The notes under the pieces are model-generated. The model made no database searches and was not told the DNA's origin. It saw only the letters and a program-made list of their open reading frames with translations. From a virus: 64,000 bases of DNA. The stretch covers positions 1 to 64,000 of the IMG/VR virus record IMGVR_UViG_3300033273_000208; one strand, given 5' to 3'. Each line of letters begins with the position of its first letter. Positions within the stretch are counted from its first letter, which is position 1. Position numbers and translations under genes: made by a program. This document shows positions 35,601-49,249 of this stretch, in pieces.

Positions 35601-38600
35601 TGTCTATAGCAACATCAGTGCTTCTGAAGGCAGTGGCGTTAATGCATCTATCGACGTTAACGTTGATGCTAGCGGTGCTGTTACTATCAATATGAATAAG
35701 ACGGGTCGTGGATATCTGATTAGCGACACTCTGAGAGTAACTGATGCACAACTGGGTGGATATGGATATGCCGACATCACGTTTGATGTTCAAACAACCA
35801 TTAACGTCTTTGATGAGACAAAACTGAACCGTGGTACTCCCCAATACTACAATGCAACCGATGCAACCATTGATACGGTTAACTATAAGTGGGGAACTGG
35901 TTCTACTGCACTAACTGCAGCAAACCACTATGGTATTACAGGTTTCGACCTGAATACATCCGAGTGGACCCTGCAAGGTTGGTTCCGTATTGATAGTGCA
36001 ACTCAAGCACTGAACAACTCTCAACCCACATTCTTCGAGACTCATCCTAATGATGGCAGCAACCCTTCCAATACGCTGAGACTGTATGTTGATGGTGATA
36101 GTGGTAGTGCAGACTATGGAAAACTGAAACTGGTCCATGAAGGAACCACTGACGTTGCGGTATCCGTTTCTGCTACTGTTTGGGCAACATTTGCTGGTGG
36201 CGCATGGGTTCATGTTGCACTGTCTAAGACTCAGCCCACATTGGGTGCATATGACTATGCAGCATACATCAACGGTCAACAGTTGGGTCTGTGGTCTGGT
36301 AGTACGGATGATATTGGTGTTGATGAAGTATACGTTGGTGGTATCAAAGTTCCAACAACATATACAACACTTATCGGTAACATCGATGACTTTGTGATCG
36401 ATGATGATAGTCAGTATTCTGGTGCTTCTTTCACTTTGCCTGATGCTGCTATTCCGATTAGAACAACAAACACTGGTGTATCGATCTATAAGATCGATAG
36501 ACAGCATGATCGTCGTGGAACATTTGCAGTAACTGATCTGCCGAACTCCACATCGGTTGCATTCCTCGCAGAATCTAACTGGTCATATAACACCCAGACT
36601 CAACCTGCAATGACTAACTGGGAGATTGGTCCTGGTGGTCTGCAGATTCTTGACTATGCTGAGGTTACCAGTCAGTTGACTACAGGCATCTATACATTTG
36701 ACTACGATTCCGTTCTGTACGGTTCTAAGACTTCTACCGTTCCTTCTCCTGGTGGAAAGAGACTTGTACTGTCTCCTGTCGTAACACCAAAGTATTATAT
36801 CAAGGATGCGACATATCAGAAGATTGATAGTGTCCAACAACTGACCTTTAATCAGGATGTCCGCTTTACTAAGGGGCAAATCCTGCAACAGTACAACGAG
36901 CAGGGCACTACCCAGCGTTACGGCACTATTGTTGAAGTTCCAGAGGGAACTATTGAGAATCCTGGTCTGGGCACAACCTACAAGATTGGTAACATCTTCC
37001 CTGCTGCAGCAACATTTAATACCACTGATAAAATCAGAAGCACCAGTGCAACTGATGCAGGTCTGAACGTTATTACTGGCATTACATTCACAGTTGCTCG
37101 TGATTTTGCTGAATGGGAACAGGCGGCATCTTACATTGCTGGTGATCAGGTTTACTCTCAGGGTAATATTTACACAGCAACCACCAATGGCACCGCTGGT
37201 ACTAATGAACCAGTCCACACAACTGGCAATGCTAGCGATGGTGGTGTTTCTTGGGACTTCACAGTTTCTGCCAACACTCCCCTTGAAGTAGATCTGTCGA
37301 ATACCCCATATCCTACACCTAAGGATCCTATCTGGACAAAACTGAAGATCTATGACATCGGTGATGTTGTCTACTACGGCAGAAACAAGTATACCGCAAC
37401 TGCTGCTGGTCGTTCTTCTCAGAATCCTCCCACCCACACTACAGGCACTGCAACAGACGGTACTGTAACTTGGCAATATACTTCGACATATGATCCTCTG
37501 AGTGATTATGCAACCTTCAAAGAGTTTGATGCTGGTGAAAACTGGTATTCTCTCACGGTTAATAAAATCTACAGCGATTCCAACTTCATTGCTAATGACA
37601 ACCTTAGCATTGGTGGTTCGGTAACTGTCAATCCTAAAGAGGATGCACCCACTATCCTTCAAATCAATGGTATCGGTAGTGTCAAAGAGATCTCTCTCAT
37701 TGCAGTTCTCGACAAGACAATCCTCGTTGATACGCAGGAAAGAACTGATCTTGTTTACTGTGTCGCAAATAGTGCACACAAATACTCCGCAAATGACATC
37801 CTGTTTACAGAAGGATTCAGCACAAGCGAGTTTAATGGTTCGTTCTTCGTCAGAGAAGTCTTCTCTTCTAGAGAGTTTACTTTCCAAGTTCGTGAAACAC
37901 CTGCAGCAGAACCAGCATTCCTGCAGAACAGCATTGCTCGTGTAAACATTTACACTAAGCACCCAACTCTGCTTCTGATCAGGAACCACAACTACCTCTT
38001 TGATATGAGTGACAGCAGTAACCTTGGTTACTATCTGTCATTCTCTCAAGATAACGAGTTCAAACTGGAATACTCCTTCAATAATATTGAACGTCAGGGA
38101 ACTCCTGGTGTGTTTGACGGTACCAATGCACCATTCGTTAAACTCAAAGTTGACGGTCAAGTTACTAATATCTCTTATTACTTCGACCCCTCCAGAACTG
38201 GTGCAAACTCCCCTGTGGGTGATAAGTCCTTCATTGATGTTAAGAAGACACCGTTTGACGGCAGATATACCGTCAGCAAAGTTCTTTCTCAGACTGAGTT
38301 CCAGTTCCCACTGCTATTTGAACCTGAAAACAATAATGCCGAAATCGGTAGTGATGATCAGGGCAATCCATATTCCGTTTACTCCACAACATCCAAGAGA
38401 GCAATCGGTCCTATTGCAGACATCAAACTGATTTCTGCTGGTGGTTTCTATCAGAGACTGCCCATCATTTCCGATATTGCATCTTTCCGTCAGATTGAGC
38501 GTGTTGAGATTATCTCTGGTGGTTCTGAGTATGCTATCGGTACATATGATCAGGTGCCCATTAACGGTGACGGTGAAGGCGGTCTCTGCCGCATCGAAGT

Positions 38601-41600
38601 TGCAGTTGATGAAGAAATCGGTTCTGGCACTATCGTTAGCGTAACCGTTACCGATCCTGGTAAGGGATATACAACTGCAAGCATCGACGTTGATGGAATC
38701 CAAGGTATTCTTGGTCCCACGCTGACTGGTTCGGGTGCTGATTTGGATGTCATCATTCCTGATGAGGGATCTGGTGCATCGGTCTTCCTGACTGGTAAGA
38801 ATATTGGTAAGATCAAGAAACTCAAGAACAATGAGTTTGGTTATGGTTACTCCCACGACTACACTCTGAAACCTGAGATCACCTTCCCGATCAACCTGCA
38901 ACTCTTCAATACCTCGATTCTGTCGCAGATCACCATCACCGATCCTGGTGCTGGATACACCTCTGCTCCTGCGGTGATCATTTCTGGTGGCGGTGGTGTT
39001 GGTGCCGAGGCAGTTGCAGTCGTTAAGAACAACCGTCTGAGTGAGATCCAGATCAAGAATCCTGGTGCTGGTTACTCTTCAGAACCCAGCGTAACTCTGA
39101 AGTCTGAGTTCAACTACGTTGTCAACCTTGACTTGAACTACCTACAGTTCAACTTCCCTCATGGCATTACTAATGGTGCTGCTATTCAGTTCCGTGCCGA
39201 TGATGTTGGTACTACTGTTGGCGAACTGCCGAAGCCCAGTTCTGCTGGTTTGACCAGTTTGGTGGTGGGTCAAACCTACTATGCGATTGCTGGAGAATCC
39301 AACTCTCTGGAAGGTGACCAACTCCGCTTTGCACTGACTCCTGCCGACGCCGAGTCTGGTAACTTTATTACATTCCTGACTCAGGGTGCTGGTCGCCAAG
39401 TCCTGCTTACCGAGGTCTTCGGTGGTAAAGCAGAGGCAGTGGTTGAAACATCCAGATTCCTGGAAGGTGAGAAAGTCTATCAAGGCGATTCTGAAGAAAC
39501 CGCAACCGTTTTTGCATATGTTTCTGAGAATAATGGTTGGCAGCTTGGTCCCAAGATTCTGAAACTTATCAATGCTACTGGCACATTTGTGGTCGGTGAG
39601 CGTGTAAATGGTTCTGTGTCTCGTGCATCTGGTGTTATCGATAACGTTTCCCTTGCTAAGGGCGTCCTGAACATCGACTCTCTGACACAAACTCCTGGTA
39701 GATTCATCGATGACGTTGGTAAACCTTCCGAAATCGTTCAGAAGATTCAAGACTCCTTCTTCTACCAGAACTTCTCTTACGTCATTAAGTCCACGATTCC
39801 CATCAACCGTTGGCGTGAGCAAATCCTGGAGAATAACCACCCGACTGGTTTCAACATGTTCGGTCAGCTTCAACTGGCTGGTGGTAAGGATATCTCTGGT
39901 CGTAAGGTTGGTACTGAGTTCATCAAGCAGGTGAACATCAATGAGTACGCCAATGTCAACCAAATCACATCCTTCGGTGCTGCTCAACCGATCTACACAG
40001 ACTTCAACAATACTGAGGTTCTGTTCCGTAAGAAGCGTTTGACCAACTCTGAGGAAATCCTCACCTCCATCGTTAAGAAACTGGACGATATTGCCGATCA
40101 GTTTGATGGCATTCAAACAGCATTCAATCTTACGGTTGAGGGTGAACAGGTCATCGTTAAGAACAACCAGTTGTTGATCACCCTGAACGGTATCATTCAG
40201 GCACCTGTCGATGCTTACGATATTGTTGGTGGTCAGATCGTCTTCAAGGAAGCACCGAAGGCACCTTCTAAGGTTGTCTATCGTGATGTGGGTCTTGAGT
40301 TCCTGACTATAACTCGTCTGAACCTGACAGATGTTTCTGGCATCTATCCCGAGATTGGATATCAGATCTCTGGTGCTTCTAGCGATGCTTACGCAACTGT
40401 AGTCGCATCTGGTACGAATACAATCGATGTGGTTGATATTACAGGTGGTCCTTTCCAGAACAACGAAAGAATCGACGTTTCTGCTCTTGGATTCAGTGCA
40501 CTGATTGGTTCACAGGAAGTCCTCACACAGTCCACACTGTATGAGTTTGATGAAACTCTGGTTTGCACCAACCGCAACCGTGGCAACCCGACTGCTCAGG
40601 TTAACGCGATCAACTTGGATGAAAACGGCGATGCCAGCAGTGCAATCGTTGTAAGCAAGACAACTGGTACTGCTAAGTATGAGACTGGCGTCTTTGACTT
40701 CCGTCTGCAGGATATCATCTACTCCACTCGCTCCAACTTGGCGGCACGTATCACATTCCTGGCACCTTACAGAGATCCCGTCACTGACGATGTTGTTGGC
40801 GAACAGATCCTGACTGCTGGTTCTTCGTTCTATGGTCTGCTGTTTGAGCGTATTGTTAGCACCAGCTATCCGAACATCCTGTTGGATGATATTTCTAAGT
40901 CCACCATCACACCTACCGAACTCTTTGACAACGAAGAGCGTATCAACTCGTTCTTCCTTGACTTTGAAGAAGTTCGTTCCACTGAGGTAACTTATACCGA
41001 TCTTAGTAGTGGAGTCTTTAGTAATGGCGATGATATCCGTAACATTAAGGTCTTCTATAACAACCCCATTTACGGTGCTGCATATGGAACTGCTGCACCA
41101 CGTTATTACGATGCTAGAAATCGCATTTCTGCATCCAAAGATGAAATCATTGACTTTGCAACTGCAGAGATTGCAGTTGAGCATGAAGACTTCTACTATC
41201 CTGGTCAACCTCAAACCGACTCCCGTTCTAGATTCCGTGACGGTTATCGTCTGATCATCAAGAACAAGGATTGGATTGTTGCCAAGACTTATGAGGATAT
41301 GATCCTCCAGTATCCTTCTCTGGTGGTTCCGAATAGTGATAAGTGTAAGCGTGACTTGGGACATTTTGTTGATGCAGTTGCATACGACACCTATGCAGGT
41401 GGTAACAAGTATGCTCGCAAGTTTATCCAGATGTACTTCACAGGTCAGGGTCTTGGTTATATCAACCAGCAACTTGCAGAAACCACTTGGGCATATGGTC
41501 GTGCAGCAACCTACATGAAGGATGCTATCACTAACCAACTGTCTGGTACTGAGACTATTGATTCTGTGTTATACACCAAGTATCAAGATCTTACAGTTAC

Positions 41601-44600
41601 CGAAGGTGGCGCTACCTATGGTGCACCTGGCACTGTCTCCAACACCGATACTGGTGCTTGTGCAGATGTTCAATCGGCAGTTGATACTTTGGCAACAGCG
41701 ATCACTGAGACGCTGCTTGGTAACCAAGACTTCGACGACATTGACGCCGAAGAACCCACATATAATACTACCGAAGAAAAATGCCGTCGTGACGTTGGTT
41801 ACTTCGTTGATGGTCTTGCGTCTGACGTTGGTCAGGGTGGCAACCTGGGTGTTGTTACCTGGGCACGTTTCTACTTCGAGAATGGAACTTTCATCAGCAA
41901 CGGTGTTGCTGGCGAAGAAGCAGAAACAATCACCGCTCTGAACAAAGCACGCGATCTTGCTAAAAGAGCAATCAACAACCTTCTGTATGAAAAGGATTTG
42001 ACAATCCTGTATGATCCTGCATCTTACGGTGGTTCTGCTCCTGGTCATGACTATGATGCAAACTACGCTTCTGGTACTAACCAAGATGCAAGCAACTGTG
42101 CGGACGTTCAGTCCACCATTGACACTCTGACTACGATTGCTACAACTGCAATCAACAACCAGACACTTGCAAATATCAACGCTCTGTCCTCCATCGATGA
42201 TGGTTCCTTCAGAGATGGTGAGACTATTCGTGTTATCAAGGTTGCATATAAGAACAAGTCCACAGGTCTGTTTAACAGATTGGATTCTGTTCGCGGTGTC
42301 ACCTCTGGTGCAACCATGACCCTGGAGGGTGTTAACTCTGGTCTTAAGTGGTTGTTTGCTTCCAGTGCAGGTGTCAATGGAACGTTCCAAGACGATGAGT
42401 ACATCACCAACTCCACCATCACCAACCCTGGTGCTGCACAAGTTACTCAGAGTGTTCTGAATGTCAAGTCCGACTTGGCAAACAGCACTAAGTCTCTGAA
42501 GTTTGTTGCAAACTCCTGGCTGAAGAAGGCAGAGTCCTACGATGTAGACTTCGGAACTGGCGATTTCACTCTGGAAGGATGGTTCTACCCCACTGGCATT
42601 GTTGGTCAGCAAACCCTCTTTGACTTCCGTCGTACAGCGACTGAGGGTCTCATGATTGAGATGAACAACGACACTCTCCGTGTTTATAGCGGTTCAGGTA
42701 CTGTCGTTATCATTTCCAATGCGGTCTTTACTGCTAACACCTGGCACCACGTTGCAGTCGTCAGAACATCTGGCGTGATGCTCGCATTCGTGGATGGTGT
42801 TCAAGCAGGTGGTAGTGCTACCAATAGCGATGACTTCGGATGGGGTCCTTGCTACATCGGTTCCGACTTGAATGGATCTAATGGTTTCATCGGTAATGCC
42901 GATCAGGTCGCAGTCTACAAGGGATATGCCAAGTTTACTTCGGCATTCACTGCACCCACTAGCAATGACTGGGATGATGAGAGAATCGTTCTTGGTCTGA
43001 ATGCTGAACAACCCTTCATCGTTTCTACTGCTGAGGTTTATGCTCAGTTCAGTGGTCAGACAGTATCGTCTGCAACTGCTAAGAGAATCGACTACGCCGA
43101 TAAGCGTGTAATCGTTGAGGACATTGATCTGGGTCGTGACTCCCATCGTGATGCGGCAGATCTTATCCTCAAGAACGATAAGTGGATCTCTGAGGTTGCT
43201 GTCGGTCGCATGAAGGCGAAGTATTCTGACTTCGTGTTGCCTGGTGATGATCCCGCAACCAACATATATCAAGGCACCTACTATTGCCTCCGCGACACCG
43301 AAGAGTACATCCTCGACGCTATCGTTAAGGATCTCAAGTATGGTGGTGATTACTATACAACCGTCGCGGCCAAGGGTTACCTGGAGAAAGATGGCAGTCT
43401 GGACTTCATCGGCAAAGAACTTCTGCAATCCCTGTACGCATGGGAGCAAGCAGGTGAACTCTGCAAGTACGTTGTTTCGACAACTGACACAGATCTGACC
43501 GATGCATACACTGAAAGACTCCGCATTCCTCTGACTGGTTCTGCTGCAACGCAGGCAGTTCTGGATAACATCGACGCTCTGACTCAGAACATTCTGAACA
43601 TCCTTGCACCTACTGGCGACCGCTTCCGCGACGCTGGCGATGCTCTGTGGTTGAACAGAACTTACATTGCTGAGGAAGTTGTTGGTTACATTGAGAACAA
43701 GTGGGAAGTTACCATCAATGGTACCTACTACGACAAACTGCAGATCCCTGGTGGTAACAACGGTCAGGTCTGCATCCGCGACATCAAGGAGTACATCATT
43801 CCTGCAATCATTGCTGACCTGCTCACAGGTGGTAATGCAGCAGTCAACGAAGTCATCGACTTCTACCTGAATGGTGAGCAAGATATCCTTCACGTCAGCG
43901 AAGAACTGCTGCCGATGCTGGATGCAATCTCCTACACCAAGTATCTGTCCACCAAGGCAATCAACCAACTGCTTGTTCAGTTCGGTCAAGCACCTGATCC
44001 TGCTCAGGGTTCTACAAACTACGACGATTACTACATCGCTCAGTACACTCAGGCAGTTCCCTACATCGATCACACGGTAACCGTGGATCCTCAGGGTTAT
44101 GACGCCAACCGCGCTGATAACAACCTGCTGATTGATGCAGCAGACATGATTGAAAGGAACAAGAAGCAGATTGCTTCTGAGGCAGTCATGAGAATGAATG
44201 ACCTCGCTAAGTTCCAAGATCTACAAATCCCTGGCGGTCAGCAGAACTGTATCGATGATGTGGTTGGTTTCATTGAGGCACTTGTCCACGACATTCGTCT
44301 GGGTGGCAACAGCAAGGTTTTTGATGCTGCTGAACTGTACATCGAACCTGAGAACAACTCCCTCCGTCACATTGAGAGTGAAGCAGAAGCATCCATCTAC
44401 GCATACAAGATGGCGAGAGACATCTGTGTTCTCGCAATGCGTAACGGATTCGGACGCGATAACATCTATGGCTATGGGTCTGGTGAGGAAAATGATCCTA
44501 GCGTTGAGTCTTACGATCAGAACCCACAATCCTCTCGCATCATTGATGCTGCAAACATCCTCGACAGAAATATCCGTTTCATTGCTGAGGAAGCAGTTTA

Positions 44601-47600
44601 TCGTACAACGATCCAGTATCCTTCCCTCACCATCCCTGGTGGCAACATCAACTGTGTCCACGACATTGCAGACACCCTGAATGCAATGGTCTTCAACATG
44701 AAGTACGGTGGCAACAACATGGTTTATGACGCTGCTGAGTTCTACGTGGGTACCTCTGGTCTCCAGCACGTTGCATCTCAGTCTGCTGAGTCTGTCTACG
44801 CATTCAACCAGGCACGCGACATTGCGATTCAGGTTATGCGTGCAGTGCCCGTTATCAACACTGGTAACGAGGTTCATGGGTTTGAGCAGAAGTATTATGA
44901 CGAGCTCGACTACGAACCCTACAAGTCCAAAACCCGCGACTATGTGACTCTGGATGAGGCTGCTCTGACTGGTGGCACTACTGCAAACCGCTCTCGTGCT
45001 GCTGACGCATACAACCTGATCTACAACAACGCTCGCTGGATTGCAGAAGGCACCGTCAATACCTTCGTGGCATCTAATAGTTGGACAATCCCTAACGGCA
45101 CCGAATCCTGTATCGATGATACTGAGCGTATCCTGAAAGGTGTTGCATATCACGTTGCTTACGGTGGTAACTCCTATGTCTGGGATTATGCAAACGAGTA
45201 TGTCCAAAATGGACACATCGGTTCTCCCCAGAACGGTTGGACGCAGGCGATCTTCAACTACATCAACAGCAATATCCTGCCCGATGTTATCCGCAACATC
45301 CAACCCACTGCAGCAAGTTCCTGGAACGCTGCAGGTCACACGGATCTTCAGCAATACAGAGATCTCACGATCACTACTGACGTGACCCAACCCGCATGTC
45401 CTACTGAGGTTGCTGCTGCTACAACGCTGCTGTCGATCGTTACCGATGCTGTGGTGAATGGCAACATGAACCACGCAGCTCGTACCGTTCCTCCTGGCGG
45501 TGGTGCATGTGCAAACGTTGAGTCTACAATCACAGATCTGTTTGCAATCGTCACCGATACAATCAACAACTACACCAGTCTGGGTGGCGTTCCTCGCACA
45601 CTGCCTAGCATCTGGCCTCTGAAGTACACCGCAGATTCTGCTGAGCGTGATCTCACCGTCACCTACGACAGTGCTGCTACTTCCTGGGGTACCACTTGCC
45701 AGAATGTTGAAACAACCATCAACGGTCTGTTTGATATCGTTCTGCAAACCATCACAGACGCAAGTGCTGCATCGCCCAGTAACTACCTGGATAGTATCTC
45801 TAGAACACTGCCCACAAACGGATTCACCAACACTCTGTATCAGCAATATACCTGCTACAACGTGATTGATGCTGCATGGACTCTGTTCGATCTGATGCTG
45901 GATAGTCTGGGTTCTGGTTCCTACTCAAACCGCCTGACTGCAGAGTTCATTCGTAAGAATGATCACGCGATTACTGCTCGTGCTGTGGCAGCAACCTTGG
46001 CACAGTATCCTTCGGGCGATATCCCCGATCAGGCATATGCACAGGATGTTCTTGAAGCATGTATCTACGATATTGCAACTAACGGCAACGCAGGTGCATT
46101 CAAACTCGCAAATGAATGGTTCGATGGTGAAGGTAACTTCATCGCTTACCCAGATATTCAGAGAATCCGCCTCCTGTACTGCATGAACAAGGTTCGTGAG
46201 TATGCGAAGGATGTGATGTTCAACTTCAATGATATTGATTGGTCTTTGTACGATGTTTGGAGTCCTGAGCAAGTTCAGGGTTATACTCCTCGCCTGGAAT
46301 GGGATCAGGAGAGCACCGAGTTCAATATGGATTCCTCGTTCAACTGCCTGGAGTTTGCTATCGAGCGTGGCACATTCCCCTCTGACAACGTGGTCACATT
46401 CGTTGCTTCCACGGACGCTCAGAACCTCACCAACTCCTATAACGAAGGACAAGACTACAACACAGACCCCGCTCTGGTTCTTCTCACTCCGACAATCGAA
46501 GTTGGTTGGGAGCGCGAAGAAAATCGCGTACGCATCAACCGTACCAACTTCTTCCGCCGTGGCGATGTTCTGAAATATGTCCTCGCTTCTGCAACTTCCC
46601 TGGACGGTGCGAACGATCAAGATTACTACTACGTTCTCAACGCAGAACCGCAGTGGTTTGAGATCTCTCGTATGTCGAAGCACGATGCTCGCTTCCGCGA
46701 CTTCACTTTCGATCTTAACAACACAGGTAACCAGCAGTTCTTCACTGCTCGTCGTGCAGGTGTTACTCGCGTTGCCAACGATTATGGAACACGCGATATC
46801 CAGACCCCCATCTCTGCTGGATTCAACATCGCAGACGTGCTCGTGGGCACGACAACTGGTGCTTCCGCCGAAGTATCGTCTACCTTTATCAATAACGCAA
46901 AGATTGTTAAGACCTTCAAATACTATGGTCTTGAAACGATGTCTGAGACTACCTTCATCGACGGCGAACAAGTTGTCGTGCAGGGTGCCGTCACAAACAA
47001 CGGTTATGTCATGCAGCACGTCATTCCTGACGAGTTTGACAACGGTTGGATCAAACTTGAAACACTCCAAGGCACAATCTCTCAGGGAGATACCATTGAG
47101 GGCATCACATCTGGTGCAACTGCGGTTGTAACTGCAGTTGAGGAAGATCGCCTGCTTCTCAATGCCAAGACTGGTATCTTTAGTCAGGGTGACTGGTTGT
47201 TCAAGAAAGATACCGCAACCGAAGCATATATTGATGTCTTCAATGACAAGCGTGGTGTTCTTACCGCAACTGACGGTGGTCGCATCACTATGGACGTTGA
47301 AACAATCAATAGTTCCTGGGAAACTGGCGATGTAATCTACGGTTCCATCACAGACAAGTATCTTGATCTGGTTGGTATTGATGACCAGGGACAAGCAATC
47401 TCCGTGAACACCTACGTGCACGGTCAGAAAATCTACAAACTGTCCCTCTCTAGCGTCTCACGCGATACGGGTTACACGGGCGACTTTGTTTCTGGTGATA
47501 CCGTATATCTGCTGCAAGGCACAACCGTTGCGGTACCTGGCATTACAGCAACTGTATCCCAGTGGGATTATCGCCCCGAGGATGGTGTAAATGATCTTTA

Positions 47601-49236
47601 TCTCACCTCACCCGTACAGACGGGTGGTGGAAACGTCCCCGTGAGTACATTTGGTGCAGGTGGTTACAACGTTGGTAAGTTTGAGAACCTCAACAACTTC
47701 CCGCTGATCTTTGCATCTGGCACCTTCGTCGAAACCTCCTATTCCGCTTACGGCAAGATCGCTAAGATCGATCAAACGGGCACAACCGCTCGCTGCTGGT
47801 TGGAAGAAGTTGAAGGCGACTTCCTCACCAACATGACCATCACGTCCGATAATGGTTGGCAGGCAGGTGTCGCACTTGCGAAAGATTTGATTGGTCGTGT
47901 TGATCGCTACTTCCGTGGTTTCGACGGTTCTCAAACAACCTTCAAACTCACCATTGCTAACGGCGAACAATACCTGCCCGACCCCGCAGGTCACATGCTG
48001 ATTTTCGTGAACGGCATCCTGCAACCCCCTGGCGCATCTGCATCGTACACCGCGTCTTCTGACGAGATTACGTTCACAGAGGCACCTGAAGTTGGATCTG
48101 AGTTCATCGGTTACTACATCGGTAAACTCCGTCAACTGGATGATATCAGCTTCGAGTTTGACTCGCTCCGCTCCTCGTTCAACCTCAAGTACCAGGGTGG
48201 TTTCTACTCCCTGACCCTGACTGAAGGTGTTTCTTCCAACACCATTCTGCCTGAGAACAACATCATCGTTTCCCTCAACGGCATCATTCAGGAACCTGGA
48301 GTTGGTTATGAGATCGTTGGTTCTCGCATTATCTTCTCTGAGATTCCTCGCTCAGGCACGACCTTTGTAGCATTCAGCTACATTGGTTCTGACGCGGACG
48401 TTATTGCTGCAACCGTCGTTCCCCCGATTGAATCGGGTGATCAACTATTCATCGAAGGTGAAGACGAGGCAGAACCCCGTGAGGTCGCTCTGATCGAATC
48501 CTCCAACTCGCTGGTTACCTTCGAGTACACAGGTACAGTCAAGGGTCGTAACGCTTCCGCTCTGGCGAACATTCGCCAAGGTACGCTCTCCGCAGCAATC
48601 ATCACCAACCCTGGTAACGGTTATACCACACGCCCGAATGTGGACGTGATTTCCTCCAGTGGTTTTGACGGTCGCGTACGTGCACAAATGGGTGTCGCAA
48701 GCATCCAAGTTAAGACTCCTGGTGTTGGTTATGCACTGCCCGTGGTTAGCGTTCTGACAACGGTTGCCGATGACTTCACATCGCCTCAGGGACCTCCGAT
48801 TAACGGTGGTTTTGATGTCTACGCAGGCGAAGCGATCGATGCTACTACTGGCGAAGTTATCACCATTGAGGCAGGTGCAATCCAGATCACACGCCAACCT
48901 CTGAACATCACAGTCAACCAAGGTCAGACTGCAGTGTTCAACGTGATCGCAGTGTTCAACGCTGCTGATGGCGATCCCATGGGCGTGACCGAAGGTCTGA
49001 ACTATCAGTGGCAGAAGAAGAACTACGGCGAAACTAACTGGAACAACATCATCGGTGCAAACCAGGCAACATACACAACCAGCAGCACCATTCAAGGTGA
49101 TGATGGTGATGAGTATAGAGTTGCAATCACATACGCAGGTGCAACACCTGTCTACTCCAACTCCTCTGTCCTCACGGTACAGACGGGCGCTACTGTGATC
49201 GCCAACTTCGATCCCTCGTCTATTTTCGCACAATAA
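26665..49236 (+). CDS. gp7: Giant baseplate wedge initiator gp7-like multidomain protein (7523 aa)
   Basis: PDFIRE..FL..YY N-terminus, IKRIRDFY.SKGT...LF..LFGE, IQDSFFYQNFSYVI...HPTG; lies between gp6 and gp8; also GSGY repeats, YHYH-like, propeller, LamG, CBM-like, helical and Ig-like domains. Confidence 0.85.
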   Translation: MQKNINVSDRVAYQVPDFIREEDQQFVDFLFEYYKSQEKTGRPFDILNNVNLYLDVDSYSQRTLSAGTTLLKDIGFVEDLIEVESIDGFIEKDGSILIDNEVIYYESLTRGPDAILTPGISIEEFKKKEQLLESPFQYFDGVQNTFDLRFLGEPIQPVSADHLIVRVYGVAQIPGEDYFVEGDTIRFATPPREKLGTDDPNTTSIIYMVGFADINIDTLDENPIQDGSKTHPLRFGTQFYTPVSEVGLIVNRNGVFQQPFVDYVIYQTTADGTYIEFRGLQLSASERLTIRSIEYISPAVGSGAQIVSSVNEDGLLIDLLVKEGGSGYRLEFAPKVTITPSDLGGVGATARSLIGGAKNINLIGGGQGYTSYNPPLIEIAPPTNPYGTQATAELVVDDETGQVSSLKITNSGSGYDFIPAVSFKNPSGAAITDPEIDSEGRLVTDSISVTNGGLGYSNPPLVHIDQAPVGGIDAQAVAVLNPEGIVVQVVITNRGRGYTNAPRARIIQPVGAQVLGVTVASGSVTDIELLTGGRGYVDPPSVYIVDDRKDSAGLPIGGTGATAVATIFNGEITDISITNFGEGYDPAFPPKIYIAEPQAARASVDIGFDEVTGFEINTPGSGYKPSALVGCVRGTSGTISYDNVGNQIFATESQLKLSNHIAGAEVVSLDTLFLRQIFDKIRRQYLPTIRLDYTKVNPVQVIKRIRDFYVSKGTKTATQFLFKVLFGEEVDVYYPRDEVISPSAASWVVDTILRATLIEGNPDDLIDGEIVQLVDEVDTNVTAASALIENVISIIKGTDTIYELAISEETLQGKFIIPYKTKLVEFLSKTDQIITVDSTIGWPARNGTIRINDEEVVQYKERSLNQFIECTRSKNGVVEDWDPGTIIYSDIYVYVNYGTDQQCKLRILGIAEAGSTTLDDTGSYYLEGDKLTVASLGATDQDEKLSSWLYNVKKLISVESATPGGQNNQTATIVTSNPHGLLVEDNVTVYGANPTVYNGTFQVTARLDEYTFSYQMLAPTDIIPQGNILLSVDLNRGKSDVTAINTAITPFTSNIQNSFFNAQYVYAAATGLPNYKVGPFIGTALIPGNQRKLLRFPRKATTVSKRETVRPNTAVGAWVNGVSVWSYKSSEFLRYGPLTSIDITNGGQGYDAGNKPQLEISGGGGSGATAEVTVNGSLFSIEVTDGGTGYKTQPLVSVVGGDGIGATAQAVITGGRVSRVLVEQPGTGYTSQPLISITGGGGSGATATASVRGPISAVTLTNAGSGYTELPTINLNSGSGALAQPIVINGRIVSIAIINSGSGYTTAPNIVINGDGFGAIAKAVIGTIGEDKGKVISVQILNKGINYTQGNTTIRLEAVGEFATFKPNVFQWTKNLHYDLADKYDFARGYVFTGYNNQFGGEYAHLVDPKELRYVVGDNVFLDPATNTFQEQTANNEHSPILGWAYDGNPIYGPYGYIDPTDQNSGLRRLRSSYQLKSSLVYEVDSNPNPTRGDGPPLSEYPAGTFVDDYEYAFQLGDLDPYNGRFCKTPEYPDGTYAYFVTIDESDAGQAVFPYIIGPEFYSQPDTWNMSQDATQDNIPSDVVRFRDPFTEVDIDVDRQPNREPDILTTELEAYPLILEIQDTNGDGIIDSNEQLETIELSEESTLQIYDYFPTVSDESRVDIEVETITKFESAQIDGFVIENPGVSYQVDDVIFFNNEGSGGFGASAAVSAVEGLSILGYQKIIEDDVVYGKITTDGNHELYVGDEVIVTSTVIPDNTNKTYYTKVVSGIEDIVIDQEGVGYNESIPPTYELITTSGQDAVFNLNVTQTGQITEAQISIINSGNQYDPENPPQVRVSHPQIFKKTRYYAGEYRETTQSEETLGVFNVNHSLTNALRYTYVCGSITKSDGTTAAWIAKFNDVGDLIWDRTLETIDGITKTARFKQMYLDERAENDIIYVVGETEYDNANNRPDILLVKYESAFDNANQPEGQVRYQKEISGVSGTTRRDYAMGITLGEEERVYICGYTDTNSPDPDDMWVIQMNEEGEMREKRKFSSSDDDERMHQIKYLGDARYLFVGMNMSDYYMIIGEFFFDGNNIELSYAKNINISGGRPQNPRFTIDNYNDVYLTFDIFNNAIQKNSAVGIAKFAYDQINANEPTWDWYKILAPSTEFVSITNADINIDIFGNVTLVTDTKLTENTRKVGAHYIKFDGEILKQSTIEDVDTVGVQATTHTVDDSGDLIIFGQKQKSDQAASYRFDGSEGSGGFISAITNITGTAATRGAGVGTLGSISAADQIRATNIGTLTTATAVNVLRAGKISTVGGFSAADVRRAGTVLDLENFSAADARRGGAVNGVTNISAADPKRGGVIASVNNIGAADQARGGRITLMANISAADPIRGGNILGVGNVSASDPSRTAGTYQAVTYTTSGSGVNAVFDITVNAAGAAIITVVNGGISFAINETITVADAQLGGGGAPDVTFQVNAIGGFNYTNVPVTSTDVNSTGSGATVDVGVSSTGDVSLTVNQGGIGYYNGETLTISDSDIGASGAANPTFDVSGLGGFSYTNVASTNNGVGVNATFNVTIDGTGAAIVVQVNQGGLAYAAGDTVTISDSLLGNNGAANLTFDVETITAPATYTNVAATSTSGIGTNATFSVTIDANGAASIVSGTPAGLSYAVGDTITIADTSLGNSGAADLTFEVATIKAPPLYSNVATTSNGAGSGLTLQVTINADGSVAFLNVTDPGNGYVVGDTITIQDADVGGTGAPNITADVESVGGGAIYTVSNFTSTGSGTGATFNVTVDSSGAISQVNIINSGNGFVANETVTVPDSELGNNGGADFTFNVTATNGITYSGISTWTSSNNAYGGGTGAVFNIELDNLGNFTALTPISRGANFVLNDTITIPDSQLGNTGAPDVVLSVASIEGHTYNNISATTSGTGELATFNVVVDGNGLATPTVNDPGREYQTGDTFTITDAQLGNFGGANLTFEVTVLQGIVYSNISASEGSGVNASIDVNVDASGAVTINMNKTGRGYLISDTLRVTDAQLGGYGYADITFDVQTTINVFDETKLNRGTPQYYNATDATIDTVNYKWGTGSTALTAANHYGITGFDLNTSEWTLQGWFRIDSATQALNNSQPTFFETHPNDGSNPSNTLRLYVDGDSGSADYGKLKLVHEGTTDVAVSVSATVWATFAGGAWVHVALSKTQPTLGAYDYAAYINGQQLGLWSGSTDDIGVDEVYVGGIKVPTTYTTLIGNIDDFVIDDDSQYSGASFTLPDAAIPIRTTNTGVSIYKIDRQHDRRGTFAVTDLPNSTSVAFLAESNWSYNTQTQPAMTNWEIGPGGLQILDYAEVTSQLTTGIYTFDYDSVLYGSKTSTVPSPGGKRLVLSPVVTPKYYIKDATYQKIDSVQQLTFNQDVRFTKGQILQQYNEQGTTQRYGTIVEVPEGTIENPGLGTTYKIGNIFPAAATFNTTDKIRSTSATDAGLNVITGITFTVARDFAEWEQAASYIAGDQVYSQGNIYTATTNGTAGTNEPVHTTGNASDGGVSWDFTVSANTPLEVDLSNTPYPTPKDPIWTKLKIYDIGDVVYYGRNKYTATAAGRSSQNPPTHTTGTATDGTVTWQYTSTYDPLSDYATFKEFDAGENWYSLTVNKIYSDSNFIANDNLSIGGSVTVNPKEDAPTILQINGIGSVKEISLIAVLDKTILVDTQERTDLVYCVANSAHKYSANDILFTEGFSTSEFNGSFFVREVFSSREFTFQVRETPAAEPAFLQNSIARVNIYTKHPTLLLIRNHNYLFDMSDSSNLGYYLSFSQDNEFKLEYSFNNIERQGTPGVFDGTNAPFVKLKVDGQVTNISYYFDPSRTGANSPVGDKSFIDVKKTPFDGRYTVSKVLSQTEFQFPLLFEPENNNAEIGSDDQGNPYSVYSTTSKRAIGPIADIKLISAGGFYQRLPIISDIASFRQIERVEIISGGSEYAIGTYDQVPINGDGEGGLCRIEVAVDEEIGSGTIVSVTVTDPGKGYTTASIDVDGIQGILGPTLTGSGADLDVIIPDEGSGASVFLTGKNIGKIKKLKNNEFGYGYSHDYTLKPEITFPINLQLFNTSILSQITITDPGAGYTSAPAVIISGGGGVGAEAVAVVKNNRLSEIQIKNPGAGYSSEPSVTLKSEFNYVVNLDLNYLQFNFPHGITNGAAIQFRADDVGTTVGELPKPSSAGLTSLVVGQTYYAIAGESNSLEGDQLRFALTPADAESGNFITFLTQGAGRQVLLTEVFGGKAEAVVETSRFLEGEKVYQGDSEETATVFAYVSENNGWQLGPKILKLINATGTFVVGERVNGSVSRASGVIDNVSLAKGVLNIDSLTQTPGRFIDDVGKPSEIVQKIQDSFFYQNFSYVIKSTIPINRWREQILENNHPTGFNMFGQLQLAGGKDISGRKVGTEFIKQVNINEYANVNQITSFGAAQPIYTDFNNTEVLFRKKRLTNSEEILTSIVKKLDDIADQFDGIQTAFNLTVEGEQVIVKNNQLLITLNGIIQAPVDAYDIVGGQIVFKEAPKAPSKVVYRDVGLEFLTITRLNLTDVSGIYPEIGYQISGASSDAYATVVASGTNTIDVVDITGGPFQNNERIDVSALGFSALIGSQEVLTQSTLYEFDETLVCTNRNRGNPTAQVNAINLDENGDASSAIVVSKTTGTAKYETGVFDFRLQDIIYSTRSNLAARITFLAPYRDPVTDDVVGEQILTAGSSFYGLLFERIVSTSYPNILLDDISKSTITPTELFDNEERINSFFLDFEEVRSTEVTYTDLSSGVFSNGDDIRNIKVFYNNPIYGAAYGTAAPRYYDARNRISASKDEIIDFATAEIAVEHEDFYYPGQPQTDSRSRFRDGYRLIIKNKDWIVAKTYEDMILQYPSLVVPNSDKCKRDLGHFVDAVAYDTYAGGNKYARKFIQMYFTGQGLGYINQQLAETTWAYGRAATYMKDAITNQLSGTETIDSVLYTKYQDLTVTEGGATYGAPGTVSNTDTGACADVQSAVDTLATAITETLLGNQDFDDIDAEEPTYNTTEEKCRRDVGYFVDGLASDVGQGGNLGVVTWARFYFENGTFISNGVAGEEAETITALNKARDLAKRAINNLLYEKDLTILYDPASYGGSAPGHDYDANYASGTNQDASNCADVQSTIDTLTTIATTAINNQTLANINALSSIDDGSFRDGETIRVIKVAYKNKSTGLFNRLDSVRGVTSGATMTLEGVNSGLKWLFASSAGVNGTFQDDEYITNSTITNPGAAQVTQSVLNVKSDLANSTKSLKFVANSWLKKAESYDVDFGTGDFTLEGWFYPTGIVGQQTLFDFRRTATEGLMIEMNNDTLRVYSGSGTVVIISNAVFTANTWHHVAVVRTSGVMLAFVDGVQAGGSATNSDDFGWGPCYIGSDLNGSNGFIGNADQVAVYKGYAKFTSAFTAPTSNDWDDERIVLGLNAEQPFIVSTAEVYAQFSGQTVSSATAKRIDYADKRVIVEDIDLGRDSHRDAADLILKNDKWISEVAVGRMKAKYSDFVLPGDDPATNIYQGTYYCLRDTEEYILDAIVKDLKYGGDYYTTVAAKGYLEKDGSLDFIGKELLQSLYAWEQAGELCKYVVSTTDTDLTDAYTERLRIPLTGSAATQAVLDNIDALTQNILNILAPTGDRFRDAGDALWLNRTYIAEEVVGYIENKWEVTINGTYYDKLQIPGGNNGQVCIRDIKEYIIPAIIADLLTGGNAAVNEVIDFYLNGEQDILHVSEELLPMLDAISYTKYLSTKAINQLLVQFGQAPDPAQGSTNYDDYYIAQYTQAVPYIDHTVTVDPQGYDANRADNNLLIDAADMIERNKKQIASEAVMRMNDLAKFQDLQIPGGQQNCIDDVVGFIEALVHDIRLGGNSKVFDAAELYIEPENNSLRHIESEAEASIYAYKMARDICVLAMRNGFGRDNIYGYGSGEENDPSVESYDQNPQSSRIIDAANILDRNIRFIAEEAVYRTTIQYPSLTIPGGNINCVHDIADTLNAMVFNMKYGGNNMVYDAAEFYVGTSGLQHVASQSAESVYAFNQARDIAIQVMRAVPVINTGNEVHGFEQKYYDELDYEPYKSKTRDYVTLDEAALTGGTTANRSRAADAYNLIYNNARWIAEGTVNTFVASNSWTIPNGTESCIDDTERILKGVAYHVAYGGNSYVWDYANEYVQNGHIGSPQNGWTQAIFNYINSNILPDVIRNIQPTAASSWNAAGHTDLQQYRDLTITTDVTQPACPTEVAAATTLLSIVTDAVVNGNMNHAARTVPPGGGACANVESTITDLFAIVTDTINNYTSLGGVPRTLPSIWPLKYTADSAERDLTVTYDSAATSWGTTCQNVETTINGLFDIVLQTITDASAASPSNYLDSISRTLPTNGFTNTLYQQYTCYNVIDAAWTLFDLMLDSLGSGSYSNRLTAEFIRKNDHAITARAVAATLAQYPSGDIPDQAYAQDVLEACIYDIATNGNAGAFKLANEWFDGEGNFIAYPDIQRIRLLYCMNKVREYAKDVMFNFNDIDWSLYDVWSPEQVQGYTPRLEWDQESTEFNMDSSFNCLEFAIERGTFPSDNVVTFVASTDAQNLTNSYNEGQDYNTDPALVLLTPTIEVGWEREENRVRINRTNFFRRGDVLKYVLASATSLDGANDQDYYYVLNAEPQWFEISRMSKHDARFRDFTFDLNNTGNQQFFTARRAGVTRVANDYGTRDIQTPISAGFNIADVLVGTTTGASAEVSSTFINNAKIVKTFKYYGLETMSETTFIDGEQVVVQGAVTNNGYVMQHVIPDEFDNGWIKLETLQGTISQGDTIEGITSGATAVVTAVEEDRLLLNAKTGIFSQGDWLFKKDTATEAYIDVFNDKRGVLTATDGGRITMDVETINSSWETGDVIYGSITDKYLDLVGIDDQGQAISVNTYVHGQKIYKLSLSSVSRDTGYTGDFVSGDTVYLLQGTTVAVPGITATVSQWDYRPEDGVNDLYLTSPVQTGGGNVPVSTFGAGGYNVGKFENLNNFPLIFASGTFVETSYSAYGKIAKIDQTGTTARCWLEEVEGDFLTNMTITSDNGWQAGVALAKDLIGRVDRYFRGFDGSQTTFKLTIANGEQYLPDPAGHMLIFVNGILQPPGASASYTASSDEITFTEAPEVGSEFIGYYIGKLRQLDDISFEFDSLRSSFNLKYQGGFYSLTLTEGVSSNTILPENNIIVSLNGIIQEPGVGYEIVGSRIIFSEIPRSGTTFVAFSYIGSDADVIAATVVPPIESGDQLFIEGEDEAEPREVALIESSNSLVTFEYTGTVKGRNASALANIRQGTLSAAIITNPGNGYTTRPNVDVISSSGFDGRVRAQMGVASIQVKTPGVGYALPVVSVLTTVADDFTSPQGPPINGGFDVYAGEAIDATTGEVITIEAGAIQITRQPLNITVNQGQTAVFNVIAVFNAADGDPMGVTEGLNYQWQKKNYGETNWNNIIGANQATYTTSSTIQGDDGDEYRVAITYAGATPVYSNSSVLTVQTGATVIANFDPSSIFAQ
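33403..33861 (+). repeat. Nine tandem 17-aa repeats (..ISAAD..R) in gp7
   Basis: 459 nt = 9 x 51 nt, e.g. GGAVNGVTNISAADPKR, GGVIASVNNIGAADQAR. Confidence 0.9.
33862..35802 (+). repeat. Nine tandem ~72-aa beta-rich repeats in gp7
   Basis: Consensus Y.NV..T..G.G..ATF.V..D..G...G..Y..GDT.TI.D..LG..G...LTF.V. Confidence 0.9.
41101..46230 (+). repeat. About 8 helical phycobiliprotein-like repeat domains in gp7
   Basis: Repeated DA...I..N...I..EA, IPGG(N), Cx[RDH]D, GGN and C..V...I..LF motifs. Confidence 0.7.
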
Positions 49237-49249
49237 ATAGTCAAAAACG

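What the first reader, a model, noticed from the sequence alone, without database searches (positions are those of the whole stretch)
41101..46230. Phycobiliprotein-like domains with intact bilin-attachment cysteines inside the virion baseplate protein
Seen: about 8 helical repeats in gp7, e.g. RIIDAANILDRNIRFIAEEAV...QYPSLTIPGGNINCVHD, LQIPGGNNGQVCIRD, QYPSLVVPNSDKCKRDLGHFVDAVAYDTYAGGN, EKCRRDVGYFV and YCLRD. Seven have Cx[R/D/H]D (Cys codons at 41344, 41782, 43285, 43771, 44248, 44653, 45109). Six closing helices carry a second Cys (41659, 42097, 45397, 45508, 45697, 45853), e.g. TCQNVETTINGLFDIV. Established: phycobiliprotein subunits read roughly RLDAVNRI..N...IV..A..L....P.LI.PGGN...ACLRD (beta) or DKCARDIGYYL...Y...AGG (alpha). 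There Cys84/82 binds the bilin and the following Asp coordinates it, and the beta subunit ends GDCSALASEIASYFD with the Cys155 bilin. Both Cys contexts and the PGGN loop are matched here in the right order. Inference: these are globin-fold biliprotein domains on the phage particle that may be covalently chromophorylated, giving a pigmented or light-sensing baseplate. This would be relevant to light-dependent cyanophage adsorption and would supply a viral substrate for phage-encoded bilin lyases and bilin synthesis genes.
Basis: partly seen in the sequence, partly recalled or inferred. Interest (0 to 1): 0.95.

Follow-up and report, generated by a model that had tools for sequence, protein, structure and literature searches.

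The report
Phycobiliprotein-fold domains in cyanophage baseplate protein
A giant baseplate/fibre protein of a T4-like virus of marine cyanobacteria contains eight domains that are true relatives of the host's light-harvesting phycobiliproteins and keep their pigment-attachment residues, so the virus particle may carry pigment, which would explain light-dependent attachment but has not been shown.

Summary
The 7,523-residue ORF in the T4 gp7 position (26665-49236) holds eight ~105-residue helical domains at 41101-46230. Seven have Cys-x-[R/D/H]-Asp, and six following helices begin with a second Cys.

The domains are homologous to phycobiliproteins (PBPs):
- Pfam PF00502 scores 68 bits.
- A profile made only from phage copies finds almost only PBPs in the PDB (E 4e-6).
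- AlphaFold models (pLDDT 92) superpose on PBP beta chains from residue 32 to the C-terminus (Z 18.5, rmsd 2.0 A).

The first Cys aligns with Cys84. The second falls, by alignment offsets, on beta-153/158. Over ~1,500 copies in cyanophage giant proteins, Cys, Arg and Asp are 93, 90 and 96% conserved, and most copies have only that one Cys.

In 16 reference cyanomyoviruses the domain co-occurs exactly with the T-type lyase gene cpeT (13/13 against 0/3). It is present in S-PM2, P-HM1 and P-HM2, which adsorb only in light, and absent from P-SSM2 and P-SSP7.

Five other phages with an S-type lyase, like the one at 5850-6359, lack the domain. P-SSM2 has pebS and ho1 but no domain.

Pigment binding is untested. 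I found no paper on this. The scan noted the same kind in at least 46 other genomes.

The parts
26665..49236 (+). Giant ORF of 7,523 aa in the T4 gp7 position (baseplate wedge or fibre protein). It carries all the domains listed below.
   Evidence: ORF list. It lies between gp6 (24590-26659) and gp9/10-like and gp8 genes. It has a weak Baseplate_wedge match. Homologues are annotated 'baseplate wedge initiator' or 'similar to gp7'. It matches PHROG tail-fibre and virion-protein families.
41101..41205 (+). Orphan first helix (PBP helix B equivalent) of domain B. It is split from the rest of domain B by the insertion of domain A.
   Evidence: Sequence layout. The same split pattern of orphan first helices is found by the profile in L010 and S-PM2.
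41224..41538 (+). Domain A core, with CKRD (Cys codon 41344). This is the most PBP-like copy.
   Evidence: PF00502 at 26.3 bits, above the 22.2 cut-off, taken alone. AlphaFold model pLDDT 92.9. VIA Z 13.7, rmsd 2.0 A, 110 of 113 residues aligned on PBP beta residues 32-150.
41650..41724 (+). Closing helix of domain A, with the second Cys (codon 41659).
   Evidence: The model of core plus helix has pLDDT 91.7. It aligns to PBP beta 32-177 at Z 18.5. This Cys is at least 90% conserved in 42 such units.
41707..41982 (+). Remainder of domain B, with CRRD (Cys codon 41782).
   Evidence: HMM positions 15-107, 83 bits.
42091..42162 (+). Closing helix of domain B, with the second Cys (codon 42097).
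   Evidence: Helix HMM match at 26.7 bits.
42541..42921 (+). Laminin_G_3 (concanavalin-like lectin) domain inserted between domains B and C. It is not PBP-like.
   Evidence: PF13385 at E 1.1e-19. It accounts for the non-cyanophage tblastn hits.
43135..43485 (+). Domain C core, with CLRD (Cys codon 43285).
   Evidence: HMM 121.7 bits.
43540..43614 (+). Closing helix of domain C, without Cys.
   Evidence: Helix HMM match at 23.1 bits.
43618..43971 (+). Domain D core, with CIRD (Cys codon 43771).
   Evidence: HMM 107.9 bits.
44122..44445 (+). Domain E core, with CIDD (Cys codon 44248).
   Evidence: HMM 128.4 bits. PF00502 at 17.4 bits.
44530..44847 (+). Domain F core, with CVHD (Cys codon 44653).
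   Evidence: HMM 132.9 bits. PF00502 at 18.9 bits.
44989..45303 (+). Domain G core, with CIDD (Cys codon 45109).
   Evidence: HMM 119.9 bits. PF00502 at 16.7 bits.
45388..45918 (+). Four closing helices in a row, each starting with Cys (codons 45397, 45508, 45697, 45853). Read as the last helices of domains G, F, E and D, which gives the nesting D(E(F(G)))).
   Evidence: Four helix-HMM matches follow four cores that have no helix of their own. The nesting is inferred from the counts and order. It was not modelled.
45922..46230 (+). Domain H core, a decayed copy with Ala at the Cys position (YAQD).
   Evidence: HMM 107.5 bits. Alignment.
5850..6359 (+). S-type (CpeS/CpcS-like) phycobilin lyase gene, 20 kb upstream. 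Its link to the domains is doubtful.
   Evidence: PF09367 at 54.4 bits. Only 15 phage records have a homologue. Five of those phages lack the domain.

Best explanation
Shown: the gp7-position giant virion protein contains eight diverged but genuine phycobiliprotein-fold (bilin-binding globin) modules. Each corresponds to PBP residues ~32 to the C-terminus and lacks the N-terminal X-Y hairpin. Some modules are inserted inside others. Seven keep the Cys84-type cysteine and the Asp, and four of these also keep the Arg. Six closing helices keep a cysteine at the beta-153/158-type position.

Inferred: during assembly in the infected cell, bilins are attached by thioether bonds to these cysteines. 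The bilins come from the host or, in some phages, from phage enzymes. Attachment would be by the phage T-type lyase CpeT, by host lyases, or autocatalytically as in BBAGs. The baseplate and fibres of the released particle would then carry pigment.

More speculative: light absorbed by these pigments changes the conformation of the fibre or baseplate and so gates adsorption.
For: Homology and fold:
- PF00502 at 68 bits for the region and 26 bits for domain A alone.
- Profiles built only from phage copies return almost only PBPs from the PDB (E 1.5e-4 with 8 sequences, 4e-6 with 104), with Cys on Cys84 in the K-C-x-R-D context.
- Foldseek's top hits are all PBPs, with TM-score (query-normalised) up to 0.82.
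- VIA gives Z 13.7 for the core and 18.5 for core plus helix, rmsd 1.9-2.0 A over 137 residues.
- In a search independent of Foldseek, ranks 1-8 are PBPs or ApcE (Z 17.5-12.4). Sensor globins and photoglobin-type (photocobilin) domains follow at about 11, haemoglobins at 7-9 and other folds at 6.6 or below.

Site conservation:
- In 1,576 copies from 150 representative proteins, Cys is 93%, Arg 90% and Asp 96% conserved, while overall identity is ~20-30%.
- 83% of full copies have exactly one Cys, so an intradomain disulfide cannot explain it.
- The second Cys is at least 90% conserved in units that have the closing helix.
- CXRD is the recognised bilin-binding motif, and BBAGs that carry it bind bilins without lyases (PMC10151467).

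Context:
- The domain is restricted to cyanophages in the phage collection (348 records).
- It co-occurs with CpeT in 13 of 13 positive against 0 of 3 negative genomes of the Sullivan 2010 panel, plus 5 of 5 further positives (Table 3 of PMC3037559).
- In Syn1, cpeT lies 0.7 kb upstream of a domain-bearing fibre gene.
- S-PM2, P-HM1 and P-HM2, which adsorb only in light, have 13, 6 and 6 copies with both Cys types. P-SSM2 and P-SSP7, which adsorb in the dark, have none (PMC6628666).
Against: - No experiment shows a bilin on any such protein or virion, and I found no report of pigmented cyanophage particles.
- The loop between helices B and E, which forms part of the PBP pocket wall, is 6-11 residues shorter in most copies (alignments).
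- Three of this window's seven Cys copies have Asp or His where PBPs have the propionate-binding Arg. One copy has lost the Cys.
- P-SSM2 and S-SSM7 carry pebS and ho1 but no domain, and phages with S-type lyases lack it. Phage pigment genes therefore do not in general depend on it.
- The CpeT co-occurrence is not corrected for phylogeny. The three negatives are the three large genomes with LPS gene clusters and may reflect a single loss.
- The adsorption correlation rests on about four independent phages.
- Most PBPs are photochemically inert, so light sensing would need something more.
- This 74-kb record (41% complete) shows no CpeT, haem oxygenase or bilin reductase.
Confidence: 0.45

Rival explanations
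1. The domains are apo, pigment-free structural modules. A PBP-fold domain captured from the host long ago now serves only as a rigid helical building block of fibres and baseplate. The conserved Cys, Arg and Asp serve folding, inter-domain or inter-subunit cross-links, or another ligand.
For: - The domain occurs as beads on a string, with up to 34 copies per protein, as structural repeats do.
- The X-Y hairpin is lost and the B-E loop is shortened.
- The CxDD and CxHD variants lack the Arg.
- Some copies have lost the Cys.
- There is no report of coloured virions.
Against: - A single near-invariant Cys per domain, in a protein almost free of Cys, is hard to explain by structure alone.
- The conserved residues are exactly the PBP bilin triad. 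A second conserved Cys sits at the other PBP attachment site.
- In the PBP fold the two sites are far apart (established knowledge), so the pair is unlikely to form a disulfide.
- The domain co-occurs with the otherwise unexplained phage lyase CpeT.
Confidence: 0.4
2. The domains do bind bilin, but only as a folding or stability cofactor, or as a by-product of assembly in a pigment-rich cell. There is no light-dependent function.
For: - PBPs and BBAGs are mostly photoinert (PMC10151467).
- Covalent bilin stabilises biliproteins (abstract of PMC2327270).
- The adsorption correlation is anecdotal.
Against: Light-dependent adsorption that is independent of host photosynthesis is known in exactly the phages that carry the domain. 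No other photoreceptor candidate is known in the virion.
Confidence: 0.12
3. The resemblance is chance or convergence of a helical repeat, not homology.
For: - Single copies score only 14-26 bits against PF00502.
- Helical bundles often give middling structural Z-scores (note).
Against: - The sequence matches are reciprocal and specific to PBPs.
- The motif has the same spacing as in PBPs: Cys, then Arg at +2, Asp at +3 and Gly-Gly at +18/+19.
- Z 18.5 over the whole domain stands well above the non-globin folds, which score 6.6 or below.
Confidence: 0.02

Closest known systems
Phycobiliprotein beta subunits (CpeB, CpcB, cryptophyte beta chains; Pfam PF00502)
   Same: Same fold from residue ~32 to the C-terminus (Z 18.5, rmsd 2.0 A). 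The Cys82-x-Arg-Asp motif is kept. A second Cys sits at the start of the last helix, where beta-153/158 carries a bilin. A loop or hairpin precedes that helix.
   Different: There is no X-Y hairpin, so no alpha-beta heterodimer is expected. The B-E loop is shorter. The domains are embedded, tandem and nested in a 7,523-residue virion protein rather than being free 17-20 kDa subunits. Identity is 14-20%. Pigment is not demonstrated.
Phycocyanin alpha subunit (CpcA)
   Same: Best match by sequence. The K-C-x-R-D-[IV]-G-Y...G-G motif has identical spacing.
   Different: CpcA has a single attachment site served by E/F-type lyases. The phage units with a closing-helix Cys are beta-like in that respect.
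PBP-like domain of the core-membrane linker ApcE
   Same: It is a PBP-fold domain built into a large multidomain protein and interrupted by an inserted loop. It is a structural match (Z 14.2-12.4).
   Different: ApcE is a cellular phycobilisome component with one PBP domain. By my own knowledge it attaches its bilin autocatalytically at a different cysteine.
BBAGs, the bilin biosynthesis-associated globins (Rockwell et al. 2023, PMC10151467)
   Same: They are PBP paralogues outside light harvesting. Some carry CXRD and bind bilins without lyases. Their function is unknown.
   Different: BBAGs are small cellular proteins encoded next to haem oxygenase and bilin reductase genes. No such neighbours are present here.
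T4 gp7 baseplate wedge protein and cyanophage giant 'virion structural' or 'tail fiber' proteins (phrog_701, 4527, 5342, 18802)
   Same: Same genomic position between gp6 and gp8. The PHROG families match.
   Different: T4 gp7 has ~1,000 residues and no PBP-like domain. The PBP-like modules are specific to cyanophages.

Membership tests
Phycobiliprotein family (Pfam PF00502) | Sequence match to the family profile above the curated cut-off | tested here: met
   The region scores 68.3 bits and domain A alone 26.3 bits, against a cut-off of 22.2. The other copies score 14-19 bits each.
Phycobiliprotein family (Pfam PF00502) | Globin-like helical fold of PBPs (helices B, E, F', F, G, H) | tested here: met
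   AlphaFold models have pLDDT 92.9 and 91.7. VIA gives Z 13.7 and 18.5 at rmsd 2.0 A on PBP beta residues 32-150 and 32-177. PBPs rank first in a search independent of Foldseek.
Phycobiliprotein family (Pfam PF00502) | N-terminal X-Y helix hairpin that forms the alpha-beta monomer | tested here: not met
   All structural alignments begin at PBP residue 30-33. Linkers between cores are only 28-50 residues and hold the closing helices.
Phycobiliprotein family (Pfam PF00502) | Cys84/82-x-Arg-Asp bilin attachment motif | tested here: met
   The full motif is present in four copies (CKRD, CRRD, CLRD, CIRD). Three copies have Cys and Asp without Arg, and one has lost the Cys. Across the family, Cys is 93%, Arg 90% and Asp 96% conserved. 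The Cys aligns to Cys84.
Phycobiliprotein family (Pfam PF00502) | Second attachment Cys of beta subunits (beta-153/155/158) | tested here: inconclusive
   Model Cys148 lies one residue before the last helix. From the end offsets of the alignments (167 to 177 in PE beta, 167 to 172 in PC beta) it falls on residue 158 or 153. The tool reports ranges only, not residue pairs.
Phycobiliprotein family (Pfam PF00502) | Covalently bound bilin chromophore | not testable with these tools
   This needs expression with bilin synthesis genes, or mass spectrometry and spectroscopy of virions.
BBAG (bilin biosynthesis-associated globins) | Gene neighbourhood with haem oxygenase and a ferredoxin-dependent bilin reductase | tested here: inconclusive
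   No PF01126 or PF05996 match in the 73.9-kb record, which is only 41% complete.
T4 gp7-type baseplate wedge protein | Position between gp6 and the gp8/gp9/gp10 genes, and a match to a baseplate wedge profile | tested here: inconclusive
   The synteny criterion is met. PF23786 scores 22.2 bits, below its cut-off of 27. Homologues are annotated as gp7-like.
S-type phycobilin lyase (CpeS/CpcS, PF09367), for ORF 5850-6359 | Match to the family profile above the cut-off over its full length | tested here: met
   54.4 bits against a cut-off of 23.3, covering profile positions 2-169 of 170. It is 30-40% identical to phage genes annotated cpcV or S-type lyase. There is a weak PDB match to a phycoerythrin lyase, 4tq2.

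The most novel reading that the evidence does not exclude
T4-like cyanophage particles are pigmented photoreceptors. Bilins are attached, mainly by the phage's own CpeT, to PBP-fold modules in the baseplate and tail fibres. They absorb light and gate adsorption. This would give the first virion-borne photosensor. It would explain both light-dependent adsorption and why cyanomyoviruses, including those of phycobilisome-less Prochlorococcus, carry a bilin lyase.
Probability: 0.2. Interest if true: 0.95.

Novelty: new variant of a known kind. Interest (0 to 1): 0.8.

Why it matters
Two questions about cyanophages have stayed open for fifteen years or more:
- why adsorption of S-PM2, P-HM1 and P-HM2 needs light although host photosynthesis is not required (PMC6628666);
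- why cyanomyoviruses carry a bilin lyase gene (cpeT) whose role was called unresolved (PMC3037559).

A family of PBP-fold modules on the virion, with the pigment-attachment residues conserved in about 1,500 copies and co-occurring with cpeT, offers one concrete candidate that bears on both. It can be tested with standard expression, mass spectrometry and adsorption assays.

It also extends the bilin-binding globin family to viruses and to nested, tandem architectures. If pigment is bound, it would supply compact 11-18 kDa biliprotein modules. If no pigment is bound, this remains a clear case of a host antenna protein reused as a structural brick of a virus tail.

Tried and rejected
- A megablast search of the region against phage genomes found nothing. 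Only protein-level searches work.
- The non-cyanophage hits (Pseudomonas, Ralstonia, Burkholderia and Variovorax phages) come from the Laminin_G_3 insert, not the PBP-like domain.
With single proteins it gave only four loci, L001-L003 and L010. An IUPAC pattern for K-C-x-R-D-[IV]-G-Y-[FI]-[VI]-D-A gave 120 loci instead.
- Intradomain disulfide as the reason for Cys conservation is rejected, because most copies have one Cys.
- The S-type lyase as dedicated partner is not supported, because five phages with that lyase lack the domain.
- The idea that the S-type lyase occupies the 'cpeT slot' next to orthologous 2OG-Fe(II) oxygenases is not supported. BLASTP of the window's oxygenase against the Syn1 neighbour gave E 1.8.
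- NCBIfam gave nothing for the domain or the lyase.
- Sequence profiles align only PBP residues ~36-105. The second Cys could not be placed by sequence, only by structure.
- Literature searches found no paper describing these domains: PF00502 with phage, cyanophage with 'phycobiliprotein-like', and several others.
- Gasper et al. 2017 on phage CpeT (PMC5336146) is not held.

Full report
**What is there.** The window comes from a T4-like cyanomyovirus. It is an IMG/VR fragment of 73.9 kb, estimated 41% complete. A single ORF of 7,523 residues (26665-49236, + strand) lies between a gp6 homologue (24590-26659) and genes for a YHYH protein, a gp9/10-like protein and gp8. That is the position of T4 gp7. 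Homologues in isolates are annotated 'baseplate wedge initiator', 'virion structural protein' or 'similar to gp7'. PHROGs places the region in tail-fibre and virion-protein families.

**Check of the observation.** The finding's region 41101-46230 is residues 4813-6522 of this ORF.
- The seven Cx[R/D/H]D cysteines are at codons 41344, 41782, 43285, 43771, 44248, 44653 and 45109.
- The six second cysteines are at 41659, 42097, 45397, 45508, 45697 and 45853.
- An HMM built from the repeats finds eight copies, and none elsewhere in the protein.
- The eighth copy has Ala in place of the Cys.
- The protein has only 29 cysteines. Twenty lie in this region and 13 at these two positions.

**Homology to phycobiliproteins.**
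- Pfam PF00502 (Phycobilisome protein) matches the region at E 9.8e-19 and 68 bits. Domain A alone scores 26 bits, above the cut-off of 22.2. The other copies score 14-19 bits.
- The reverse test also holds. A profile built only from the window's eight copies returns 95 PDB sequences at E < 10, nearly all phycocyanin, phycoerythrin or allophycocyanin chains. The best is E 1.5e-4.
- A profile of 104 copies from the window and from viral contigs improves this to E 4e-6 for CpcA.
- In these alignments the phage Cys lies on Cys84, and the motif K-C-x-R-D-[IV]-G-Y...G-G has the same spacing as in CpcA.

**Fold.**
- An AlphaFold model of the core of domain A, using 104 sequences and no templates, has pLDDT 92.9.
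- Foldseek's top hits are all PBPs, with TM-score normalised to the query up to 0.82.
- VIA-align gives Z 13.7 and rmsd 2.0 A with 110 of 113 residues aligned. The model maps onto PBP beta residues 32-150.
- A second model adds the stretch up to and including the following Cys-helix (41218-41724, 42-sequence alignment). It has pLDDT 91.7 and contains a beta-hairpin and a final helix.
- This second model aligns to beta chains from residue 32 to their C-terminus at Z 18.5 and rmsd 1.9-2.0 A over 137 residues.
- A search of 48,161 representative chains that does not rely on Foldseek ranks PBPs and the ApcE PBP domain first (Z 17.5-12.4). Stressosome and sensor globins and photoglobin-type (photocobilin) domains follow at about 11, haemoglobins at 7-9 and unrelated folds at 6.6 or below.

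The unit is therefore a PBP without the N-terminal X-Y hairpin.

**Position of the second Cys.** From the ends of the alignments, model residue 167 pairs with residue 177 in phycoerythrin beta and with 172 in phycocyanin beta. The second Cys (model residue 148) then falls on residue 158 or 153. By established knowledge these are the second bilin sites of beta subunits. This step is inferred, because the tool reports ranges and not residue pairs.

**Architecture.** The layout is as follows:
- an orphan first helix (41101-41205);
- the complete domain A with its closing helix;
- the rest of domain B with its closing helix;
- a Laminin_G_3 insert;
- domain C with a closing helix that has no Cys;
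- the cores D, E, F and G in a row, followed by four Cys-helices in a row;
- domain H.

Counts and order fit nested insertion: A lies inside B, and D(E(F(G)))). The same pattern of orphan first helices and stacked closing helices occurs in a related viral contig and in S-PM2. I did not model the four-deep nest.

**The family.**
- The window's eight-copy profile finds 1,231 representatives (50% identity clusters) among 1.84 billion proteins. Of these, 346 have E at or below 1e-30. They are mostly giant proteins, up to 7,903 residues long and with up to 34 copies.
- In the phage genome collection the domain occurs in 348 records. All are Synechococcus or Prochlorococcus phages apart from one record labelled only 'Marine'.
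- In 1,576 copies, Cys is 93%, the Arg two residues later 90% and the next Asp 96% conserved. Copies are otherwise only about 20-30% identical.
- 83% of full-length copies contain exactly one Cys, so an intradomain disulfide cannot be the reason.
- The closing Cys-helix is a subtype feature: 155 helices against 1,522 cores, and 92% of the helices start with Cys. In units that have it, the Cys is at least 90% conserved.
- Some homologues already carry an automatic PF00502 hit in databases but are named 'hypothetical protein'.
- CXRD is the recognised bilin-binding motif, and BBAG paralogues with this motif bind bilins without lyases (PMC10151467). That paper mentions phages only in connection with bilin reductases.

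**Links to phage pigment genes.** The ORF at 5850-6359 is an S-type lyase (PF09367, 54 bits). This is a rare gene in phages, found in 15 records and called cpcV in cluster C cyanophages. I searched five such phages with the domain profile: S-CREM2, S-CBWM1, S-CRES1, S-B68 and S-CRES3. None has the domain. This lyase therefore exists without the domain and is not a dedicated partner.

For the T-type lyase the picture is the opposite. I searched the 16 cyanomyoviruses of Sullivan et al. 2010 with the profile.
- Thirteen carry the domain, with 3-13 copies counted in the twelve searched with the profile (S-SM1 was detected by tblastn only).
- P-SSM2, S-SM2 and S-SSM7 have none, even at E up to 1.
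- These three are also the ones without CpeT, which I verified with PF06206.
- Syn1 reads as cpeT-negative in my parse of Table 3 of the paper, but it has a clear cpeT (120 bits). The gene is annotated in RefSeq and lies 0.7 kb upstream of its domain-bearing 'short tail fiber' gene.
- For the other eleven positives I rely on Table 3.
- This gives 13 of 13 against 0 of 3. The exact probability is 1 in 560, without correction for phylogeny. The three negatives are the large genomes with LPS gene clusters and may be one lineage.
- Five further domain-positive genomes all have CpeT: Syn30, MED4-213, S-SZBM1, S-WAM1 and P-TIM40.

Against a general link to bilin synthesis, P-SSM2 and S-SSM7 have pebS and ho1 but no domain. 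The window's own record shows no CpeT, haem oxygenase or bilin reductase. It is incomplete, however, and its closest complete relatives, S-SZBM1 and S-WAM1, do have CpeT.

**Link to light-dependent adsorption.** Liu et al. 2019 (PMC6628666) report the following.
- P-HM1 and P-HM2 do not adsorb in the dark.
- P-SSM2 adsorbs in the dark, though less than in the light.
- The podovirus P-SSP7 adsorbs in the dark.
- They cite Jia et al. 2010 for light-dependent adsorption of S-PM2 that is independent of host photosynthesis, and they suggest light-sensitive receptors or tail fibres.

The domain is present in P-HM1 (6 copies), P-HM2 (6) and S-PM2 (13), and absent from P-SSM2 and P-SSP7. In the three positive phages all full cores keep the Cys, and Cys-helices are present. 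In S-PM2 the carriers are annotated as tail fibre and short tail fibre proteins. This fits the model, but it rests on about four independent phages.

**Conclusion.**
- Homology and fold are established as far as computation can establish them (my estimate: about 0.97).
- Covalent bilin attachment is the explanation I consider most likely (about 0.45-0.5). The grounds are the near-invariant bilin triad, the second site in the right place, the BBAG precedent and the CpeT co-occurrence. It remains an inference.
- A pigment-free structural role is nearly as likely (about 0.4).
- Light-gated adsorption through these pigments is possible (about 0.2).

I found no published description of these domains. 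Earlier agents of this scan reported the same kind of domain in at least 46 other genomes. Their notes agree with what I tested here. The finding that S-type-lyase phages lack the domain appears in none of the eight earlier notes shown to me, nor does the cpeT status of Syn1. The same holds for the phage-by-phage adsorption comparison.

Noticed in passing
window 5850-6359: This is an S-type (CpeS/CpcS-like) phycobilin lyase gene in a cyanomyovirus. The closest complete relatives by the giant protein (S-SZBM1, S-WAM1) carry the T-type CpeT. Only 15 phage records have a homologue, at 30-40% identity. The published view is that S-type lyases occur only in cluster C cyanophages and S-CBWM1 (PMC10665884).
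   Followed up: partly
window 4674-7735: The lyase gene sits among oxygenase genes: a JmjC/cupin protein (4674-5366) and two 2OG-Fe(II) oxygenases (6498-7106, 7103-7735). In Syn1, cpeT is also flanked by 2OG-Fe(II) oxygenase genes, but the proteins I compared are not detectably similar (BLASTP E 1.8).
   Followed up: partly
L166 (Syn1, NC_015288, 19938-20477): Syn1 has a clear cpeT (PF06206 at 120 bits, annotated in RefSeq). Table 3 of Sullivan et al. 2010, as I parsed it, lists none. The gene lies 0.7 kb upstream of the 'short tail fiber' gene that carries PBP-like domains.
   Followed up: yes
L165 (S-PM2, NC_006820, 168556-169997): The RefSeq record places 13 tRNA features inside the 'short tail fiber protein' CDS (165928-177267). 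My profile finds PBP-like domains there in an open frame of 3,792 aa. This looks like a coordinate error in the annotation.
   Followed up: no
window 30862-31296 and 49250-50845: YHYH domains (PF14240) occur both inside the giant protein (residues 1400-1544, 104 bits) and in the next gene (129 bits). Their role in the baseplate is unknown.
   Followed up: no
window 42541-42921: A Laminin_G_3 (concanavalin-like lectin) domain is inserted between PBP-like domains B and C. It is the only part of the region shared with phages of Pseudomonas, Ralstonia, Burkholderia and Variovorax. It may be a carbohydrate-binding module.
   Followed up: partly
window 55812-63167: A second giant ORF (2,451 aa) lies downstream of gp8. 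It has no PF00502 match and I did not examine it further.
   Followed up: no
window 29764-49287, minus strand: Many long ORFs (up to 541 aa) run antisense to the giant gene. They are most likely shadow ORFs caused by its codon composition, not genes.
   Followed up: no
window 44248, 44653, 45109; L146/L147 (P-HM1, P-HM2); L010: A recurrent subtype has Cys-[IVY]-[DH]-Asp, preceded by P-G-G, in place of Cys-x-Arg-Asp. It makes up about 3% of copies overall but three of the eight in this window. Loss of the propionate-binding Arg suggests a different ligand mode, or no ligand.
   Followed up: partly
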